This document shows, one piece after another, positions 1,611 through 11,060 of a stretch of DNA of 11,644 nt. Position 1 is the stretch's first letter; every line of letters starts with the position of its first letter. The stretch lies in IMG/VR virus record IMGVR_UViG_2576861092_000008. The stretch is one strand, 5' to 3'. The notes beneath the pieces are model-generated. The model saw nothing but the letters and a program-made list of their open reading frames with translations, was not told the DNA's origin and made no database searches. Position numbers and translations under genes: made by a program. The DNA is from a virus (taxonomy: Duplodnaviria > Heunggongvirae > Uroviricota > Caudoviricetes).

Positions 1611-2354
1611 ATGACAGAGACAGAATCAGCGATTCTGGCGCACGCCCGGCGATGTGCGCCAGCGGAGTCGTGCGGCTTCGTGGTAAGCACGCCGGAGGGG
1701 GAAAGATATTTCCCCTGCGTGAATATCTCCGGTGAGCGGGAGGCGTATTTCCGGATGGCTCCGGAGGACTGGCTGCAGGCAGAGATGCAGGGTGAGATTG
1801 TGGCGCTGGTCCACAGCCACCCCGGTGGTCTGCCCTGGCTGAGTGAGGCTGACCGGCGGCTGCAGGTGCAGAGCGATTTGCCGTGGTGGCTGGTCTGCCG
1901 GGGGGCGATTCACAAGTTCCGCTGTGTGCCGCATCTCACCGGGCGGCGCTTTGAGTACGGGGTGACGGACTGTTACACACTGTTCCGGGATGCTTACCAT
2001 CTGGCGGGGATTGAGATGCCGGATTTTCATCGCGGGGATGACTGGTGGCGTCACGGTCAGAATCTCTATCTTGACAATATGGAGGCTACTGGTTTTTACC
2101 GTGTCGCACTGACAGAGGCGCAGCCGGGCGATGTGCTGCTGTGCTGTTTTGGTTCATCGGTGCCGAATCACGCCGCCATTTACTGCGGCGACGGTGAGCT
2201 GCTGCACCATATTCCTGAACAACTGAGTAAACGAGAGAGGTATACCGACAAATGGCAGCGACGCACACACTCCCTCTGGCGTCACCGGGAATGGCACGCA
2301 TCTGCCTTTACGGGGATTTGCAACGATTTGGCCGCCGCATCGACCTTCGTGTGA
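1611..2354 (+). CDS. K: Tail tip assembly protein K (JAMM/MPN metalloprotease-like domain plus NlpC/P60 domain)
   Basis: ATG at 1611 lies 5 nt after the L stop (MTETESAILAH...). JAMM-type motif HSHPGG...SEAD in the N-terminal half; Cys/His/His NlpC/P60-like residues (DCYTLF ... NHAAIYCGDGELLHH) in the C-terminal half. The ORF-track start at 1569 overlaps L and is less likely. An internal Met at 1755 would give the 199-aa length I recall for the older lambda annotation, but would truncate the MPN domain. Confidence 0.88.
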   Translation: MTETESAILAHARRCAPAESCGFVVSTPEGERYFPCVNISGEREAYFRMAPEDWLQAEMQGEIVALVHSHPGGLPWLSEADRRLQVQSDLPWWLVCRGAIHKFRCVPHLTGRRFEYGVTDCYTLFRDAYHLAGIEMPDFHRGDDWWRHGQNLYLDNMEATGFYRVALTEAQPGDVLLCCFGSSVPNHAAIYCGDGELLHHIPEQLSKRERYTDKWQRRTHSLWRHREWHASAFTGICNDLAAASTFV

Positions 2355-2893
2355 AAACGGGGGCTGAAGCCATCCGGGCACTGGCCACACAGCTCCCGGC
2401 GTTTCGTCAGAAACTGAGCGATGGCTGGTATCAGGTACGGATTGCCGGGCGGGATGCAGGAGAAACCGAATTATCATCCCGTCTTAATGAGCCGCTGGCA
2501 AATGGTGCCGTGATCCACATCGTGCCGCGTCTTGCGGGAGCAAAAAGTGGCGGTGTGTTTCAGGCGGTGCTGGGTGCGGCGTTGATTGCTACGGCAATCT
2601 GGATGCCGGGGATCAGTATCGCTTTCAGTGACATTCTCTTTTCAATGGGTGCGGCGATGACGCTTGGTGGTGTGGCGCAGATGCTGGCACCGAAAGCCAG
2701 AACTCCCCGTACACAGACAACGGATAACGGCAAACAGAACACCTATTTCTCCTCACTGGATAACATGGTTGCCCAGGGCAATGTCCTGCCTGTTCTGTAC
2801 GGTGAAATGCGCGTGGGGTCACGTGTGGCATCTCAGGAGATCAGCACGGCAGATGAAGGGGATGGTGGTCAGGTTGTGGTAATTGGGCGGTAA
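2252..2893 (+). CDS. I: Tail tip assembly protein I (ubiquitin-like N-terminus, hydrophobic C-terminal region)
   Basis: 213-aa ORF MAATHTLPLASPGMARICLYGDLQRFGRR... with an in-frame stop at 2228-2230 just upstream, so 2252 is the first possible start. GAGAGAGG at 2232-2240 is a plausible RBS. Overlaps the 3' end of K in a different frame, as in lambda. C-terminus ...EGDGGQVVVIGR. Confidence 0.9.
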   Translation: MAATHTLPLASPGMARICLYGDLQRFGRRIDLRVKTGAEAIRALATQLPAFRQKLSDGWYQVRIAGRDAGETELSSRLNEPLANGAVIHIVPRLAGAKSGGVFQAVLGAALIATAIWMPGISIAFSDILFSMGAAMTLGGVAQMLAPKARTPRTQTTDNGKQNTYFSSLDNMVAQGNVLPVLYGEMRVGSRVASQEISTADEGDGGQVVVIGR

Positions 2894-2966
2894 TATTATT
2901 TTACTCATGTTCTAACTGATTTAATATTTATATCGAACACTGATAATTATTCTATTGGTTAGCTAT

Positions 2967-3305
2967 ATGAACAAAACGATTTTATTCTGCACGATTATTG
3001 CCTTAACAGGATGTAAATCTTTGGATTACGTAAAATCCGGAAAACCTGTAATGGAAGGTAATTCATTAAAAAATATTGATGAATTGTCAGGCTGCATATC
3101 CAGACAATGGGCTGGTAATGGAACACCTATAACATCCCTTCCTATTGAGAATGGGGTAAGCCTTTTAGTTCCACAGGCTATGGGGGGATATGATGTTGTG
3201 CTTGATATCAAAAAAGCAGGAAATGGCAGTAGTTTTACTCTTTATGAACGTGTACCAGCATTAACGCCAAAAATTTTTGCTGATAGTGTTAATGCATGTA
3301 AATAA
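2967..3305 (+). CDS. Predicted lipoprotein of unknown function (moron inserted between I and J; candidate outer-membrane lipoprotein)
   Basis: ORF lying in a sharply AT-rich segment (2894-3330) between I and J. N-terminus MNKTILFCTIIALTGC is a signal peptide with lipobox L-T-G-C; the +2 residue is Lys, not Asp, so outer-membrane sorting is expected. Mature part is about 96 aa with two further Cys. Followed by a hairpin terminator. Start is either ATG 2967 or an upstream TTG at 2955; no strong Shine-Dalgarno. Confidence 0.65.
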   Translation: MNKTILFCTIIALTGCKSLDYVKSGKPVMEGNSLKNIDELSGCISRQWAGNGTPITSLPIENGVSLLVPQAMGGYDVVLDIKKAGNGSSFTLYERVPALTPKIFADSVNACK

Positions 3306-3329
3306 TAGTTAATCCTGTCGTAACTCATG

Positions 3330-3357
3330 AGCCGCCTTTTGGGCGGCTTTGTTGTTT
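3330..3357 (+). terminator. Rho-independent terminator downstream of the lipoprotein moron
   Basis: Inverted repeat AGCCGCC (3330-3336) / GGCGGCT (3342-3348) with a 5-nt loop, followed by the T-rich run TTGTTGTTT. Lies 14 nt upstream of the J start codon. Confidence 0.6.
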
Positions 3358-3371
3358 ATGGAGTGTGAGGA

Positions 3372-6300
3372 ATGGGTAAAGGAAGCAGTAAGGGGCATAC
3401 CCCGCGCGAAGCGAGGGACAACCTGAAGTCCACGCAGCTGCTGAGTGTGATCGATGCCATCAGCGAAGGGCCGGTTGAAGGTCCGGTGGACGGATTAAAA
3501 AGCGTGCTGCTGAACAGTACGCCGGTGCTGGACAGTGAGGGGAATACCAATATATCCGGTGTCACGGTGGTGTTCCGGGCAGGTGAGCAGGAGCAGACAC
3601 CGCCGGAGGGATTTGAATCCTCCGGCTCCGAGACGGTGCTGGGTACGGAAGTGAAATATGACACGCCGATCACCCGGACCATCACGTCGGCAAACATCGA
3701 CCGTCTGCGCTTTACCTTCGGTGTGCAGGCACTGGTGGAAACCACCTCAAAGGGGGACAGGAATCCATCGGAAGTCCGCCTGCTGGTTCAGATACAGCGT
3801 AACGGTGGCTGGGTGACGGAAAAAGACATCACCATTAAGGGCAAAACCACCTCGCAGTATCTGGCCTCGGTGGTGGTGGATAACCTGCCGCCGCGCCCGT
3901 TTAATATCCGGATGCGCAGGATGACGCCGGACAGCACCACAGACCAGTTGCAGAACAAAACGCTCTGGTCGTCATACACCGAAATCATCGATGTGAAACA
4001 GTGCTACCCGAACACGGCACTGGTTGGCGTGCAGGTGGACTCGGAGCAGTTCGGCAGCCAGCAGGTGAGCCGTAATTATCATCTTCGCGGGCGCATTCTG
4101 CAGGTGCCGTCGAACTATAACCCGCAGACGCGGCAATACAGCGGTATCTGGGACGGAACGTTAAAACCGGCATACAGCAACAACATGGCCTGGTGTCTGT
4201 GGGATATGCTGACCCATCCGCGCTACGGCATGGGGAAACGTCTTGGTGCGGCGGATGTGGATAAATGGGCGCTGTATGTCATCGGCCAGAATTGCGACCA
4301 GTCGGTGCCGGACGGCTTTGGCGGCACGGAGCCGCGCATCACCTGTAACGCTTACCTGACCACACAGCGCAAGGCGTGGGATGTGCTCAGTGATTTCTGC
4401 TCGGCGATGCGCTGTATGCCGGTATGGAACGGGCAGACGCTGACGTTCGTGCAGGACCGACCATCAGATAAGGTGTGGACCTATAACCGCAGTAATGTGG
4501 TGATGCCGGATGATGGCGCGCCGTTCCGCTACAGTTTCAGCGCCCTGAAGGACCGCCATAATGCCGTTGAGGTGAACTGGACTGACCCGGATAACGGCTG
4601 GGAAACGGCAACAGAGCTTGTGGAGGACACGCAGGCCATTGCCCGTTACGGTCGTAACGTCACGAAGATGGATGCCTTTGGCTGTACCAGCCGGGGGCAG
4701 GCACACAGAGCCGGGCTGTGGCTGATTAAAACGGAGCTGCTGGAAACGCAGACCGTGGATTTCAGCGTGGGCGCAGAAGGGCTTCGCCATGTACCGGGCG
4801 ATGTCATTGAAATCTGCGATGATGACTATGCGGGTATCAGCACCGGTGGTCGTGTGCTGGCGGTGAACAGCCAGACCCGGACGCTGACGCTCGACCGTGA
4901 AATCACGCTGCCATCCTCCGGTACCACGCTGATAAGCCTGGTTGACGGGCAGGGGAGTCCGGTCAGCGTGGAGGTTCAGTCCGTCACCGACGGCGTGAAG
5001 GTGAAAGTGAGCCGTGTTCCTGACGGCGTTGCTGAATACAGCGTATGGGGGCTGAAGCTGCCGACGTTGCGCCAGCGCCTGTTCCGCTGCGTGAGTATCC
5101 GTGAGAACGACGACGGCACGTATGCCATCACCGCCGTGCAGCATGTACCGGAAAAAGAGGCCATCGTGGATAACGGGGCGCACTTTGACGGCGACCAGAG
5201 CGGCACGGTGAATGGTGTCACGCCGCCAGCGGTGCAGCACCTGACTGCCGAAGTCACCGCAGACAGCGGGGAGTATCAGGTGCTGGCGCGATGGGACACA
5301 CCGAAGGTGGTGAAGGGCGTGAGCTTCCTGCTCCGTCTGACCGTAACAGCGGACGACGGCAGTGAGCGGCTGGTCAGCACGGCCCGGACGACGGAAACCA
5401 CATACCGCTTCACGCAACTGGCGCTGGGGCGTTACACGCTGACAGTCCGGGCGGTAAATGCGTGGGGGCAGCAGGGCGATCCGGCATCGGTATCGTTCCG
5501 GATTGCGGCACCGGCAGCGCCTGTCACTATTGAACTGATACCAGGGTATTTTCAGATAACAGCGGTCCCGAAACTGGCTGTATATGACCCGACGGTGCAG
5601 TTTGAGTTCTGGTTCTCGGAAAAGCGGATTATCGATATCAGGCAGGTTGAAACCAGCGCGCGTTATCTTGGTACGGCGCTGTACTGGATAGCCGCCAGTA
5701 GCAATATTAAGCCGGGTTATGATTATTACTTTTATATCCGCAGCGTGAACACCGTTGGTAAATCGGCATTCGTGGAGGCCGTCGGTCGGGCGAGCGATGA
5801 TGCGGAAGGTTACCTGGATTTTTTCAAAGGAGAAATCGGGAAAACACATCTGGCCCAGGAGTTGTGGACGCAGATTGATAACGGTCAGCTTGCGCCGGAC
5901 CTGGCTGAAATCAGGACGTCCATTACGAATGTCAGCAATGAAATCACGCAGACCGTCAATAAAAAACTGGAAGACCAGAGTGCGGCAATCCAGCAGATAC
6001 AGAAAGTTCAGGTTGATACAAATAATAACCTGAACAGCATGTGGGCCGTGAAACTGCAGCAGATGAAGGACGGACGCCTTTATATTGCGGGTATCGGTGC
6101 CGGTATTGAGAACACCCCTGACGGCATGCAGAGTCAGGTGCTTCTGGCTGCTGACCGGATTGCGATGATTAATCCTGCGAATGGCAACACAAAGCCGATG
6201 TTTGTTGGTCAGGGCGATCAGATATTCATGAACGACGTGTTCCTGAAACGCCTGACGGCTCCGACCATTACCAGCGGCGGTAATCCTCCGGCATTTTCCC

Positions 6301-6851
6301 TGACACCGGACGGGCGGCTGACGGCGAAAAATGCCGATATCAGCGGTAACGTGAATGCGAACTCCGGGACGCTCAACAACGTCACGATTAACGAGAACTG
6401 TCGGGTTCTGGGAAAATTGTCCGCCAACCAGATTGAAGGCGATCTCGTTAAAACAGTGGGCAAAGCTTTCCCCCGGGACTCCCGTGCACCGGAACGGTGG
6501 CCATCAGGGACCATCACCGTCAGGGTTTATGACGATCAGCCGTTTGACCGGCAGATTGTTATTCCGGCGGTGGCATTCAGCGGCGCTAAACATGAGCGGG
6601 AGAATAACGATATTTATTCGTCATGCCGCCTGATAGTACGGAAAAACGGTGCTGAAATTTATAACCGTACCGCGCTGGATAATACGCTGATTTACAGTGG
6701 TGTTATTGATATGCCAGCTGGTCGCGGCCACATGACGCTGGAGTTTTCGGTGTCAGCATGGCTGGTGAATAACTGGTATCCCACAGCAAGTATCAGCGAT
6801 TTGCTGGTTGTGGTGATGAAGAAAGCCACCGCAGGCATCAGTATCAGCTGA
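3372..6851 (+). CDS. J: Tail tip / central tail fibre protein J (host specificity protein)
   Basis: 1159-aa [27 protein letters not shown]..., preceded by a GAGG RBS. Size and order match lambda gpJ (which I recall as 1132 aa). C-terminus ...[35 protein letters not shown] resembles the lambda J receptor-binding end as I remember it. Confidence 0.95.
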
Positions 6852-7622: not shown

Positions 7623-7650
7623 AAGCCCGTGGGTTCTGGCGGGCTTTTTT
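7623..7650 (+). terminator. Rho-independent terminator downstream of lom
   Basis: Stem AAGCCCG (7623-7629) / CGGGCTT (7640-7646) with a 10-nt loop, then a T-run ending at 7650. Lies just upstream of the stf RBS (GGGGTG) and ATG 7662. Confidence 0.6.
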
Positions 7651-7661
7651 GTGGGGTGAAT

Positions 7662-10600
7662 ATGGCAGTAAAGATTTCAGGTGTACTGAAAGACGGCACA
7701 GGAAAACCGGTACAGAACTGCACAATCCAGCTGAAAGCAAAACGTAACAGCACCACGGTGGTGGTGAACACGCTGGCCTCAGAAAATCCGGATGAAGCCG
7801 GGCGTTACAGTATGGACGTTGAGTACGGTCAGTACAGCGTTATTCTGTTGGTGGAAGGATTCCCGCCGTCACATGCCGGGACCATCACCGTGTATGAAGA
7901 TTCCCGACCCGGTACGCTGAATGATTTTCTCGGTGCCATGACGGAGGATGATGCCCGTCCTGAGGCACTGCGCCGTTTTGAACTGATGGTGGAAGAGGTG
8001 GCGCGTAACGCGTCCGCGGTGGCACAGAACACGGCAGCCGCGAAGAAGTCAGCCAGCGATGCCGGCACATCAGCACGTGAGGCGGCAACCCATGCGACTG
8101 ATGCTGCAGGCTCAGCACGCGCAGCCAGCACGTCAGCCGGACAGGCCGCGTCGTCGGCTCAGTCAGCATCTTCCAGCGCAGGAACGGCATCAACAAAGGC
8201 CAGTGAAGCATCGAAAAGTGCTGCTGCTGCAGAGTCCTCAAAAAGCGCGGCAGCTACCAGTGCCGCTGCGGCGAAAACGTCAGAAACGAATGCGGCAGCG
8301 TCACAACAATCAGCAGCCACTTCTGCATCCGCCGCGACCACGAAGGCGTCAGAAGCAGCCACCTCAGCACGGGATGCGGCGGCCTCAAAAGAGGCAGCGA
8401 AATCATCAGAAACGAATGCATCATCAAGTGCCAGTAGTGCAGCTTCCTCGGCAACGGCGGCAGGAAATTCCGCGAAGGCGGCAAAGACGTCCGAGACGAA
8501 CGCCAGGTCTTCTGAAACGGCAGCGGGACAGAGTGCCTCGGCTGCGGCAGGCTCAAAAACAGCGGCTGCGTCGTCTGCCAGTGCCGCGTCAACAAGTGCC
8601 GGGCAGGCCTCAGCCAGTGCCACCGCCGCCGGAAAATCGGCAGAAAGCGCCGCATCATCCGCTTCAACAGCCACAACGAAGGCTGGCAAAGCCACTGAAC
8701 AGGCCAGTGCAGCAGCAAGGTCTGCTTCCGCAGCGAAGACATCCGAGACGAACGCGAAAGCGTCGGAAACCAGCGCAGAATCCTCAAAAACGGCTGCCGC
8801 ATCGTCCGCCAGTTCGGCGGCGTCATCGGCATCATCGGCGTCTGCTTCAAAAGATGAGGCGACCAGACAAGCGTCCGCAGCGAAGGGCAGCGCCACGACA
8901 GCATCCACGAAGGCGACAGAGGCAGCTGGCAGTGCGACGGCGGCAGCACAGAGCAAAAGTACGGCGGAATCCGCGGCAACGCGCGCCGAGACAGCGGCAA
9001 AACGGGCAGAGGATATTGCATCCGCCGTGGCGCTTGAGGATGCAAGTACGACGAAAAAGGGGATAGTACAGCTCAGCAGTGCGACCAACAGTACGTCTGA
9101 AACGCTGGCGGCAACGCCAAAGGCAGTAAAATCAGCCTATGACAATGCAGAGAAACGTCTGCAGAAAGACCAGAACGGCGCTGATATACCCGATAAGGGA
9201 CGCTTCCTGAACAACATTAACGCGGTCAGTAAAACAGACTTTGCTGATAAGCGTGGTATGCGTTATGTGCGGGTTAACGCTCCTGCAGGTGCAACATCTG
9301 GAAAATATTACCCTGTTGTTGTTATGCGTTCTGCTGGCTCAGTAAGCGAACTGGCATCAAGGGTCATTATCACCACGGCAACGCGAACCGCAGGCGATCC
9401 GATGAATAACTGCGAGTTTAACGGATTTGTTATGCCTGGTGGCTGGACTGACAGGGGGCGTTATGCTTATGGAATGTTCTGGCAATATCAAAACAATGAA
9501 CGAGCCATCCACTCAATAATGATGAGTAATAAGGGCGATGATTTGCGCTCTGTGTTCTATGTTGATGGCGCTGCTTTCCCTGTTTTTGCGTTTATCGAAG
9601 ATGGCCTGTCAATATCCGCACCTGGTGCTGATCTCGTTGTTAATGATACGACCTATAAGTTTGGGGCAACAAATCCGGCGACTGAATGTATCGCGGCGGA
9701 CGTTATCCTTGATTTTAAGAGTGGGCGTGGTTTTTATGAGTCTCATTCGTTAATCGTTAACGATAACTTGTCGTGCAAAAAACTTTTTGCCACAGACGAA
9801 ATTGTAGCGCGTGGTGGTAATCAGATTCGAATGATAGGTGGGGAGTATGGTGCATTATGGCGTAATGATGGCGCTAAAACTCACCTGCTGCTTACCAATC
9901 AAGGTGATGTTTATGGTGGCTGGAATACATTAAGACCGTTTGCTATTGATAACGCAACCGGCGAACTGGTTATTGGAACCAAACTGTCCGCAAGTCTGAA
10001 CGGTAATGCATTAACAGCAACAAAGCTGCAAACGCCAAGACGGGTTTCTGGTGTTGAGTTTGATGGTTCCAAAGATATTACTTTAACCGCCGCGCATGTG
10101 GCTGCTTTTGCCAGAAGGGCAACGGATACATATGCCGATGCGGATGGTGGCGTTCCCTGGAATGCCGAATCAGGCGCTTACAATGTCACCCGCTCTGGCG
10201 ACAGCTATATTCTGGTTAACTTCTATACCGGAGTCGGAAGTTGCCGGACCTTGCAGATGAAGGCACATTACAGAAATGGAGGTCTGTTCTACCGTTCCTC
10301 AAGAGATGGCTATGGTTTTGAGGAAGACTGGGCAGAAGTTTATACCTCGAAAAATCTTCCACCAGAAAGCTACCCAGTCGGCGCACCAATCCCGTGGCCA
10401 TCAGATACCGTTCCGTCTGGTTATGCCCTGATGCAGGGGCAGGCTTTTGACAAATCTGCATACCCGAAACTTGCAGCGGCTTATCCGTCAGGCGTGATCC
10501 CTGATATGCGTGGCTGGACGATTAAGGGCAAACCTGCCAGTGGTCGGGCCGTATTGTCTCAGGAACAGGACGGCATTAAATCGCATACCCACAGCGCCAG

Positions 10601-11060
10601 CGCATCCAGTACGGATTTGGGGACGAAAACCACATCGTCGTTTGATTACGGCACTAAATCCACGAATAACACTGGTGCGCATACCCATAGTTTAAGTGGC
10701 AGCACGAATGCAGCTGGTAATCACAGCCATAGAGATGGCCGTCGATTTAACCCCAGTGTTTTTAAAGATACTTATCAATATGGTTATACAAGCTCAGGTC
10801 AAAATACCTGGGGTGTACAAGGCTCAGTAGGTATGTCTACGGGGTGGTTAGCTAATACCAGTACAGATGGTAATCATAGCCACTCACTGTCCGGCACAGC
10901 AGCATCTGCAGGTGCACACGCGCATACTGTCGGTATTGGTGCTCATACGCACTCCGTTGCGATTGGTTCACATGGACACACCATCACCGTTAACGCTGCT
11001 GGTAACGCGGAAAACACCGTCAAAAACATCGCATTTAACTATATTGTGAGGCTTGCATAA
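7662..11060 (+). CDS. stf: Side tail fibre protein Stf (intact, 1132 aa; mosaic)
   Basis: ATG 7662 gives [26 protein letters not shown]..., the lambda Stf (orf401) N-terminus as I recall it. Contains a long Ala/Ser/Thr-rich repeat region, a lower-GC central module, and a His-rich C-terminus ([27 protein letters not shown]) ending ...[11 protein letters not shown]. The GTG at 7629 used by the ORF track lies inside the terminator hairpin and is rejected. Confidence 0.9.
8011..9010 (+). repeat. Ala/Ser/Thr-rich degenerate tandem repeat region within stf (coding low-complexity)
   Basis: Motif A-K-[TS]-S-E-T-N-A recurs with codon starts at 8271, 8397, 8481 and 8733, spacings of 126, 84 and 252 nt, all multiples of 42 nt. 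The high GC and low complexity generate long spurious ORFs in other frames on both strands. Confidence 0.7.

What the first reader, a model, noticed from the sequence alone, without database searches (positions are those of the whole stretch)
2967..3305. Hypothesis: the lipoprotein is a receptor-masking superinfection-exclusion factor
The predicted protein is a small outer-membrane-sorted lipoprotein (Lys at +2) with two Cys in the mature part that could form a disulfide. It is encoded immediately upstream of the receptor-binding protein gene J. Known phage exclusion lipoproteins (T5 Llp next to the pb5 gene; Cor of phi80/HK022/N15 near tail fibre genes) are likewise small outer-membrane lipoproteins encoded beside receptor-binding genes, and they inactivate the phage's own receptor. 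By analogy this protein might block the outer-membrane receptor used by this J or Stf. This is inference from gene context and signal-peptide features only; I see no sequence similarity to Cor or Llp.
Basis: inference. Interest (0 to 1): 0.8.

Follow-up and report, generated by a model that had tools for sequence, protein, structure and literature searches.

The report
Uncharacterised lipoprotein gene beside tail-tip gene I
A real, well-conserved gene for a small outer-membrane lipoprotein is inserted between tail genes I and J of an E. coli lambda-like prophage; it probably blocks incoming phages at the cell envelope, but comparisons argue against it masking the receptor used by this J protein.

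Summary
Window 2967-3305 encodes a 112-aa protein with a standard lipoprotein signal (LTG|C), Lys at +2 and two further Cys. It ends 66 nt before J. It is a real gene: pN/pS is 0.11, it occurs in 337 of 5,426 complete E. coli genomes, 121 family clusters exist, and the structure model is confident (pLDDT 84.5).

It belongs to PHROG 914 (function unknown). It has no Pfam or PADLOC match. Similarity to Cor, T5 Llp and the mEpimmI exclusion lipoproteins stops at the signal peptide.

The receptor-masking idea is only partly supported.
- The same allele (98-100% aa) sits next to at least five J C-terminal types.
- Most prophages with this J type lack the gene.
- Phage Fraca carries both a true Cor and a family member.
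- The mature protein (97 aa, globular alpha/beta) is larger than known masking lipoproteins (about 55-65 aa).

Across the family the gene usually lies about 50-60 nt upstream of tail-tip gene I. One lineage has it upstream of the tape-measure gene H. gpI and gpH are the proteins lambda ejects into the envelope.

My best guess is an exclusion factor that blocks envelope penetration rather than receptor binding (confidence 0.33). No experiment has tested this.

The parts
2894..3328 (+). Whole insertion relative to lambda-like phages that lack the gene. It starts just after the I stop codon and ends just before the native I-J hairpin.
   Evidence: Alignment with the I-J junction of vB_EcoS-640R1. 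GC is 0.35-0.38 against 0.56-0.60 in the flanks.
2894..2966 (+). AT-rich 73-nt leader of the insert. It may hold a weak promoter and has a poor Shine-Dalgarno sequence.
   Evidence: Sequence read. The consensus scan found no sigma-70-like site on the + strand. By eye the best candidate is TTTACT(2900)-17 nt-AATATT, an 8 of 12 match, which is inference only.
2967..3305 (+). Lipoprotein ORF of 112 aa, a member of PHROG 914 (RefSeq WP_001332187.1, annotated 'hypothetical protein').
2967..3014 (+). Signal peptide (aa 1-15) and lipobox L-T-G-C. Cys16, the lipid-modified first residue of the mature protein, is at 3012-3014. Lys17 is the +2 residue.
   Evidence: The lipobox is conserved across the family.
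3093..3095 (+). Codon of Cys43, invariant in the family. It is the presumed disulfide partner of Cys111.
   Evidence: Invariant column in A1, A2 and A3. It lies in helix 37-50 of the model.
3297..3299 (+). Codon of Cys111, invariant in the family and located in the C-terminal helix.
3329..3359 (+). Terminator-like hairpin followed by a T-rich run. It is native to the I-J spacer and not part of the insert.
   Evidence: Found by the scan. It is present, with compensatory changes, in the phage that lacks the lipoprotein gene.
2318..2893 (+). Context: tail-tip gene I (RefSeq start; the longest ORF starts at 2252). The product has two hydrophobic helices.
   Evidence: phrog_32. The role of gpI is taken from PMC11101478 and PMC12617516.
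3372..6851 (+). Context: central tail fibre and host-specificity gene J. The receptor-binding end is the last ~250 codons (6102-6851).

Best explanation
[quoted passage not shown] There a 97-aa disulfide-braced alpha/beta domain faces the periplasm. It is an accessory gene of lambda-like tail modules.

I propose that it protects the infected cell or lysogen, and the progeny that meet its debris, at the envelope step of infection. I propose that it interferes with the tail-tip penetration machinery that all these phages share, not with the receptor-binding end of J. That machinery comprises gpI, whose hydrophobic helices are proposed to insert into the outer membrane, the gpH tape-measure channel, and possibly a peptidoglycan-cutting activity.

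Shown: gene, signal features, fold class, distribution and synteny. Inferred: localisation, disulfide, exclusion function and target.
For: - Lipoprotein features are real and conserved.
- Selection is purifying, with pN/pS 0.11.
- The model is confident.
- The gene is a presence/absence accessory with GC 5-22 points below its flanks in every phage copy.
- In 111 fetched loci it lies within about 100 nt of I in most lineages: 60 I-Lpp-J loci, which form one E. coli clade, and 32 K...Lpp-I loci plus 3 further loci with I directly downstream (2 of them the same phiAH14a region). In the K...Lpp-I loci the Lpp-to-I gap stays near 7-60 nt, while 0-4.7 kb of other cargo separates K from Lpp.
- The one lineage that is not next to I puts the gene 55 nt upstream of H.
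- Pseudomonas phage phiAH14a carries a family member together with a second, intact copy of I in its early operon.
- gpI is a virion plug whose two hydrophobic helices are proposed to enter the outer membrane. gpH forms the periplasmic channel (PMC11101478 and PMC12617516).
- The gene is uncoupled from the J receptor-binding end and coexists with Cor.
- There are precedents for exclusion proteins that target ejected tail parts instead of receptors: Ltp of TP-J34 (PMC3952083), and T4 Spackle and HK97 gp15 (my own knowledge).
Against: - No experiment on any family member was found.
- There is no PADLOC or Pfam hit.
- Synteny with I could be neutral. If new cargo always inserts right after K, older cargo is pushed against I.
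- Among close relatives (50-60% identity) the gene has moved between three slots: G/T-H, K-I and I-J.
- A chromosomal, non-prophage member exists, between a YidB-like gene and ecotin in CP001560. Some members have contexts that could not be identified.
- The fold is a common TBP-like/helix-grip type and does not indicate a function.
- Only about 8% of E. coli records with this I-J region carry the gene, so it is dispensable.
Confidence: 0.33

Rival explanations
1. Receptor masking. The lipoprotein binds from the periplasmic side to the outer-membrane protein used by this phage's J or Stf (or by competitors) and makes it unusable, as Llp does with FhuA, Cor with FhuA, Rtp45 with LptD and Lpp010 with LamB-dependent phages.
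For: - It has the same protein class and cell compartment, a conserved Cys pair, and a gene in the tail module next to J.
- Several unrelated families already do this (PMC11893012; PMC12685063; PMC9586334).
- Accessory presence/absence is also typical of cor.
Against: - Identical alleles occur with at least 5 J C-terminal types, and with varied Stf.
- Most carriers of the same J type lack the gene.
- The gene is at the 5' end of J here, and between K and I in most lineages.
- It coexists with Cor in Fraca.
- The mature domain is 97 aa and globular. The known maskers are about 55-65 aa.
- There is no sequence similarity to Cor, Llp or Lpp010 beyond the signal peptide, and Llp does not appear among the top fold matches.
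Confidence: 0.2
2. Host-fitness or virulence cargo with no role in phage-phage conflict, comparable to lambda Bor (a serum-resistance lipoprotein) or Lom. The lipoprotein would alter envelope properties of the lysogen.
For: - It is a low-GC insert in a prophage that also carries lom.
- It occurs in many clinical E. coli, including O104:H4 and ExPEC/APEC strains.
- A chromosomal relative exists outside any prophage.
- The nearest fold match, Flpp3, is a Francisella virulence lipoprotein.
Against: - The family keeps its place inside tail modules in phages of very different hosts, including an Antarctic Pseudomonas phage and environmental metagenomes. That points to a phage-centred role.
- In many relatives it is packed into the late operon within 10-40 nt of K, which leaves no room for a promoter of its own.
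- It is not a member of the Bor family: there was no Pfam hit of any kind.
Confidence: 0.15
3. Periplasmic inhibitor of a tail-borne cell-wall hydrolase, like T4 Spackle. The protein would neutralise the NlpC/P60 peptidase domain of gpK, or a lytic N-terminal domain of gpI, from superinfecting phages. This is a sub-case of the best explanation with a named target.
For: - In most lineages the gene follows K, which has JAB and NlpC/P60 domains.
- The peptidoglycan-cutting activity of lambda is still unassigned, and the location of gpK in the virion is unknown (PMC11101478 and PMC12617516).
- Genes for periplasmic immunity proteins often sit next to the genes for cell-wall hydrolases (my own knowledge).
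Against: - When other cargo is inserted, the gene stays next to I, not K.
- gpK has not been seen in virions.
- There is no fold similarity to known hydrolase inhibitors among the top matches.
Confidence: 0.08

Closest known systems
T5 Llp (lytic conversion lipoprotein; FhuA-Llp complex, PDB 8a60)
   Same: It is a small lipoprotein on the periplasmic face of the outer membrane, has a disulfide, and is encoded in the tail region beside a host-recognition gene.
   Different: - Sequence similarity is confined to the signal peptide (E 0.23, residues 1-19).
- Llp is about 6-7 kDa; this mature protein is about 10.6 kDa and globular.
- llp is coupled to the receptor-binding gene pb5. This gene is not coupled to the J receptor-binding end.
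Cor (phi80, N15, HK022, T1; PHROG 1119)
   Same: It is a phage-encoded lipoprotein cargo gene in the tail module and has an exclusion role.
   Different: - It belongs to a different PHROG (914, not 1119).
- Profile comparison aligns only the signal peptide and tether.
- Cor lies downstream of J. This family lies upstream of I, or between I and J.
- Fraca carries both genes.
mEpimmI Lpp021 and Lpp010 (PMC11893012)
   Same: These are lipoproteins encoded beside J in E. coli temperate siphophages. They were shown by plasmid expression to exclude OmpA- or LamB-dependent phages, including lambda.
   Different: - They are 72 and 82 aa precursors from other PHROGs (4281 and 12984).
- They are encoded on the opposite strand just past the 3' (receptor-binding) end of J.
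- Only the signal peptide aligns.
Rtp45 and SE-Oeko (LptD-masking lipoproteins, PMC12685063)
   Same: They are periplasmic outer-membrane lipoproteins with a disulfide, encoded next to the receptor-binding gene.
   Different: They are about 6 kDa and insert a hairpin into the barrel lumen. No sequence comparison was made here, and they do not appear among the returned fold matches.
Ltp of Streptococcus phage TP-J34; HK97 gp15; T4 Spackle
   Same: These exclusion proteins act after adsorption on ejected tail components or their partners: the tape measure, the tape measure-PtsG route and the tail lysozyme. That is the mode of action proposed here. HK97 gp15 also occupies the G/T-H slot used by one lineage of this family (the position of gp15 is from my own knowledge).
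   Different: No homology was tested or is expected. Ltp comes from a Gram-positive host, gp15 is an inner-membrane protein, and Spackle is soluble.
Flpp3 (DUF3568), the BamC N-terminal domain and other TBP-like/helix-grip lipoprotein domains

Membership tests
Bacterial lipoprotein (Lgt/LspA/Lnt substrate, Lol-sorted to the outer membrane) | Positively charged n-region, hydrophobic h-region, and lipobox [LVI][ASTVI][GAS]C | tested here: met
   The N-terminus is MNK-TILFCTIIA-LTGC. A lipobox is present in nearly all of the 121 representatives.
Bacterial lipoprotein (Lgt/LspA/Lnt substrate, Lol-sorted to the outer membrane) | Residue +2 is not Asp (no inner-membrane retention signal) | tested here: met
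   Residue +2 is Lys. Across the family +2 is K, A, S, T, G, V or E, and never D. The rule itself is established E. coli knowledge.
Bacterial lipoprotein (Lgt/LspA/Lnt substrate, Lol-sorted to the outer membrane) | Actual lipid modification and outer-membrane localisation | not testable with these tools
   This needs globomycin or palmitate labelling and cell fractionation.
PHROG 914 (function unknown) | Full-length match to the family profile | tested here: met
   E 7.3e-33, residues 1-112 against profile positions 1-118 of 118.
Cor superinfection exclusion protein (PHROG 1119) | Sequence match to the Cor profile | tested here: not met
   There was no PHROG 1119 hit at E<=1. hhalign against Fraca Cor aligns only 30 columns of signal peptide and tether. 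Fraca Cor itself scores 6.8e-34 against PHROG 1119.
Cor superinfection exclusion protein (PHROG 1119) | Gene located downstream of J in FhuA-dependent phages | tested here: not met
   The gene is upstream of J here, and between K and I in relatives. The receptor of this J is unknown.
T5 Llp | Sequence or fold similarity to Llp (8a60_B) | tested here: not met
T5 Llp | Binds and inactivates the phage's own receptor | not testable with these tools
   The indirect evidence points the other way: there is no co-variation with the J C-terminus.
mEpimmI exclusion lipoproteins (types A and C) | Sequence similarity to Lpp021 or Lpp010 | tested here: not met
   hhalign against Lpp010 aligns 17 signal-peptide columns. 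The PHROGs differ. The A3 profile finds no family member in the mEp021 or mEp010 genomes.
Lambda Bor/Iss lipoprotein | Match to the Bor family profile | tested here: not met
   There was no Pfam hit of any kind at E<=1, nor for 39 family members at E<=0.1 apart from lipid-attachment-site models.
Moron (independent cargo unit in a phage late operon) | Base composition unlike the flanks, and presence/absence between otherwise collinear phages | tested here: met
   GC is 0.36 against 0.58 and 0.59 in the flanks. The insert has precise boundaries against vB_EcoS-640R1. 334 of 4,385 matching E. coli records carry it.
Moron (independent cargo unit in a phage late operon) | Own promoter | tested here: inconclusive
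   The scan found no consensus-like + strand site. Only an 8 of 12 match can be found by eye in an AT-rich leader. In many relatives the gene starts 10-40 nt after K.
Moron (independent cargo unit in a phage late operon) | Own terminator | tested here: not met
   The hairpin at 3329-3349 is also present in the I-J spacer of a phage without the gene.
Known anti-phage defence systems (PADLOC-DB 2.0) | Match to any defence protein model | tested here: not met
   There were no hits at E<=1 for the window protein or for three relatives.

The most novel reading that the evidence does not exclude
PHROG 914 lipoproteins are a widespread, receptor-independent exclusion system of lambda-like siphophages. 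The gene stays next to tail-tip gene I (or next to H). Its product, anchored to the inner face of the outer membrane, would intercept gpI and gpH as they insert into and cross the outer membrane. An adsorbed phage would then be unable to open a DNA channel, whichever receptor its J protein binds. This would be the first such mechanism in Gram-negative hosts. It would also give a genetic handle on the gpI membrane-insertion step that recent cryo-EM work proposed.
Probability: 0.25. Interest if true: 0.8.

Novelty: new variant of a known kind. Interest (0 to 1): 0.5.

Why it matters
The gene is in about 6% of complete E. coli genomes, including O104:H4, ExPEC and APEC strains and the type strain. 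Its family sits in a fixed place in lambda-like tail modules from enterobacteria to Pseudomonas. Every copy is annotated as hypothetical.

If it excludes phages, it would add a new and larger structural class to the few known exclusion lipoproteins, and it would affect host-range prediction for phage therapy.

If its target is the gpI/gpH penetration machinery and not a receptor, it would make the least understood step of lambda infection testable by simple genetics. That step is how the tail tip breaches the outer membrane and periplasm.

Tried and rejected
- Pfam, NCBIfam and PADLOC scans found nothing useful. The only NCBIfam hit was a VirB7 signal-peptide match at E 0.08.
- Megablast and tblastn against 50,697 phage records found no close copy. 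Only 29-31% relatives turned up, in Fraca and LMessi.
- The genome-contig scan returned a single locus. Alignment A1 was too diverse to build search patterns.
- The afdb50 fold library was unavailable.
- Searching papers for WP_001332187 found nothing. A badly chosen search on 'moron' returned cardiology papers.
- A second word-indexed protein search with a broad profile added almost nothing.
- I first took the hairpin at 3329-3349 for the gene's own terminator. I rejected that after aligning a phage without the gene.
- I considered L027 (I only 59% identical, lipoprotein 100% identical) as evidence against a link with I. The I gene there is a frameshifted pseudogene, so it says nothing either way.
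- I considered a mirror-tree test of co-evolution with I, K and J. I dropped it because physical linkage would confound the result.
- I considered folding a lipoprotein-linker-gpI fusion.
- The supplements of the mEpimmI paper do not give the sequences of lipoprotein types B and D, so those could not be compared.

Full report
WHAT IS THERE

The window is the tail-tip end of a lambda-like prophage. Gene order is H (end), M, L, K, I, the ORF in question, J, lom, stf and tfa. The ORF runs from ATG 2967 to the stop at 3303-3305 on the + strand and encodes 112 aa. Its N-terminus, MNKTILFCTIIALTG|CKS, is a standard lipoprotein signal with lipobox LTGC and Lys at +2. Two further Cys, C43 and C111, lie in the mature part. 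J starts 66 nt downstream.

The gene is real.
- Thirteen E. coli alleles give pooled pS 0.047 and pN 0.005, a ratio of 0.11.
- The exact protein is on more than 1,000 contigs.
- It is in 337 of 5,426 complete E. coli genomes at 95-100% nt identity, always annotated 'hypothetical protein'.
- An exhaustive profile search finds 121 clusters at 50% identity. Nearly all are 105-125 aa proteins with a lipobox and three Cys.
- Across 39 diverse members the only invariant columns are C16, C43 and C111. This fits a lipid anchor plus one structural disulfide.

AN INSERT WITH CLEAN EDGES

The region has GC 0.35-0.38 against 0.56-0.60 on both sides. I aligned it with the I-J junction of phage vB_EcoS-640R1, which has a 98% identical J C-terminus but no such gene. 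The alignment places the insert at about 2894-3328, from just after the I stop codon to just before a hairpin. The terminator-like hairpin at 3329-3349 is present in the gene-less phage too, with compensatory stem changes. It belongs to the I-J spacer, not to the insert. The scan found no consensus-like promoter upstream.

WHAT FAMILY IT IS

The protein matches PHROG 914, function unknown, over its full length (E 7e-33). It matches nothing in Pfam, and nothing meaningful in NCBIfam or PADLOC.

Similarity to Cor, T5 Llp, mEp010 Lpp010 and the phiAH14a lipoprotein p83 stops at the signal peptide and the first tether residues.

THE RECEPTOR-MASKING IDEA

The analogy class is real and has grown. 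Unrelated lipoproteins encoded next to J in mEpimmI phages exclude OmpA- and LamB-dependent phages, lambda included (PMC11893012). Rtp45 masks LptD (PMC12685063).

A factor tuned to 'the receptor used by this J or Stf' should travel with the receptor-binding end of J. This one does not.
- In 37 IMG/VR loci with a complete J next to a 98-100% identical lipoprotein, the last 250 aa of J fall into five types with 26, 6, 3, 2 and 1 members. The types are 56-83% identical to each other or alignable over only about 50 aa. None is the lambda type.
- Stf C-termini vary as well, from 47 to 85% identity.
- The window's J C-terminal type occurs at >=95% nt identity in about 1,100 E. coli records.
- The same type occurs at 97-99% aa identity in deposited phages such as VT1-Sakai, the PPompW prophages and 640R1. 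None of these carries the lipoprotein.
- The gene abuts the 5' end of J, 3.5 kb from the receptor-binding end. llp, rtp45, cor and lpp010 all lie at the receptor-binding end of their partner gene (the llp and rtp45 positions are from the cited papers and my own knowledge).
- Phage Fraca carries a true Cor (PHROG 1119, E 7e-34) as well as a PHROG 914 member.
- The mature protein is 97 aa and globular. The characterised masking lipoproteins have mature parts of about 55-65 aa.

WHERE THE FAMILY LIVES

I fetched 111 loci that hold a family member. I classified their neighbours against a panel of tail proteins.
- The E. coli clade of the window (60 loci) has the order I-Lpp-J.
- Thirty-two loci have the order K...Lpp-I. 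They come from about ten lineages that share less than 60% identity with each other and often only 22-38% with the window protein.
- These include phages Fraca and LMessi, a Klebsiella phage, a Kluyvera prophage and many metagenomic viral contigs related to Pseudomonas phages.
- In these loci the gap from the lipoprotein gene to I is usually 7-60 nt. The gap from K ranges from an overlap to 4.7 kb of other cargo, such as arc/ant/Bro-N blocks.
- One lineage, L066-L071, has the gene 55 nt upstream of the tape-measure gene H, after the G/T chaperone genes.
- One member is chromosomal, between a YidB-like gene and ecotin in CP001560. A few short contigs could not be classified.
- Every phage copy has lower GC than its flanks.
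- In many relatives the gene starts 10-40 nt after K with a good ribosome-binding site, so it is read as part of the late tail operon.

Pseudomonas phage phiAH14a is a striking case.
- Its gene p33 is annotated from an internal start. The full ORF is a family lipoprotein.
- p33 sits in the early-left operon, directly followed by p32. p32 is an intact second copy of tail gene I, and its last 55 aa are identical to those of the tail-module I gene (p84).
- In that phage's tail module the slot upstream of I holds a lipoprotein of another family, PHROG 890.

HOW IT MOST LIKELY WORKS

Recent cryo-EM work shows that gpI is a virion component. Three copies plug the tail tip and bind the C-terminal fragment of gpH. 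On receptor binding the plug opens, and two hydrophobic gpI helices are proposed to insert into the outer membrane. gpH* builds the periplasmic channel. The peptidoglycan-cutting activity is unassigned and the position of gpK is unknown (PMC11101478 and PMC12617516).

A lipoprotein on the periplasmic face of the outer membrane is well placed to interfere with that step. This reading accounts for the family's habitual place beside I (or H), its independence from the J receptor-binding end, and its coexistence with Cor.

I therefore favour an exclusion or progeny-protection factor that blocks envelope penetration rather than receptor binding (0.33). Receptor masking remains possible (0.20). So does a host-fitness role of the Bor/Lom kind (0.15). 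A Spackle-like hydrolase inhibitor is a narrower sub-case (0.08). The remaining probability is for functions I have not thought of.

The weak points are plain.
- No member has been tested.
- The synteny with I could be neutral, if cargo always inserts right after K.
- The gene has moved between three slots among close relatives.

COMPARISON AND NOVELTY

It works like, or may work like, the exclusion lipoproteins Llp, Cor, Rtp45 and Lpp010/021. It fails every sequence or fold test for membership in those families. It is a member of PHROG 914, which has no assigned function.

I rate it a new variant of a known kind: a phage tail-module lipoprotein cargo gene of a new and larger structural family with unusual synteny. 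Interest is 0.5. The finding itself is an uncharacterised accessory gene. What raises its interest is the conserved pairing with gpI, its 6% prevalence in E. coli and the ease of the decisive experiment.

Noticed in passing
L094 (phiAH14a, KU708004) 13998-14984, minus strand: p33 is annotated from an internal TTG. The full ORF (MRIAALGLAVALLSGC...) is a PHROG 914-type lipoprotein. It is followed by p32, an intact duplicate of tail gene I whose last 55 aa are identical to p84. Both lie in the early-left operon near the repressor.
   Followed up: partly
L089 and L090 1270-5940; L064 6080-9900; L098-L113 between K and the lipoprotein gene: The gap after gene K is a cargo hot spot in lambda-like tail modules. 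It holds arc/ant/Bro-N/KilA-N blocks, HTH regulators and HNH genes, from 0.4 to 4.7 kb in total, always inserted upstream of the lipoprotein gene.
   Followed up: partly
L094 46238-46660 (p83) and L064 10406-10855: Two other lipoprotein-like families (PHROG 890 and PHROG 3152) occupy the same position directly upstream of gene I. The PHROG 3152 protein has a Cor-like signal peptide.
   Followed up: no
window 3329-3359 and L095 2210-2250: The I-J spacer hairpin is conserved, with compensatory stem changes (GAGCCGCC/GGCGGCTT against AAACCGCC/GGCGGTTT). This suggests a functional terminator or RNA element between I and J in lambda-like phages, whether or not the insert is present.
   Followed up: partly
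L082 6001-6339 (CP001560.1, 4.16 Mb chromosome): A family member (38% identity) lies outside any prophage, between a YidB-like gene and ecotin and next to copC/copD/yebY. Its GC matches its surroundings (0.62 against 0.57-0.59).
   Followed up: no
L027 1844-2602; L061-L063 near 10000-10340; L009, L028, L038, L043, L056, L072: Several IMG/VR copies of this prophage are decaying. Gene I is frameshifted in L027, the lipoprotein gene is truncated or frameshifted in L061-L063, and J is interrupted in others.
   Followed up: partly
window 7629-11060: The side tail fibre gene has a long Ala/Ser/Thr-rich low-complexity stretch (about aa 130-480). This stretch produces long spurious ORFs in other frames and on the opposite strand (8059-9066, 8159-9088, 8254-9045).
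   Followed up: no
L001 20643-22351 (E. coli O104:H4, NZ_CP027394): In O104:H4 this prophage ends at a truncated ompW next to yciE/yciF/yciG and trpA. This is the 'PPompW' integration site. A SAM-dependent methyltransferase gene lies on the opposite strand just after tfa.
   Followed up: no
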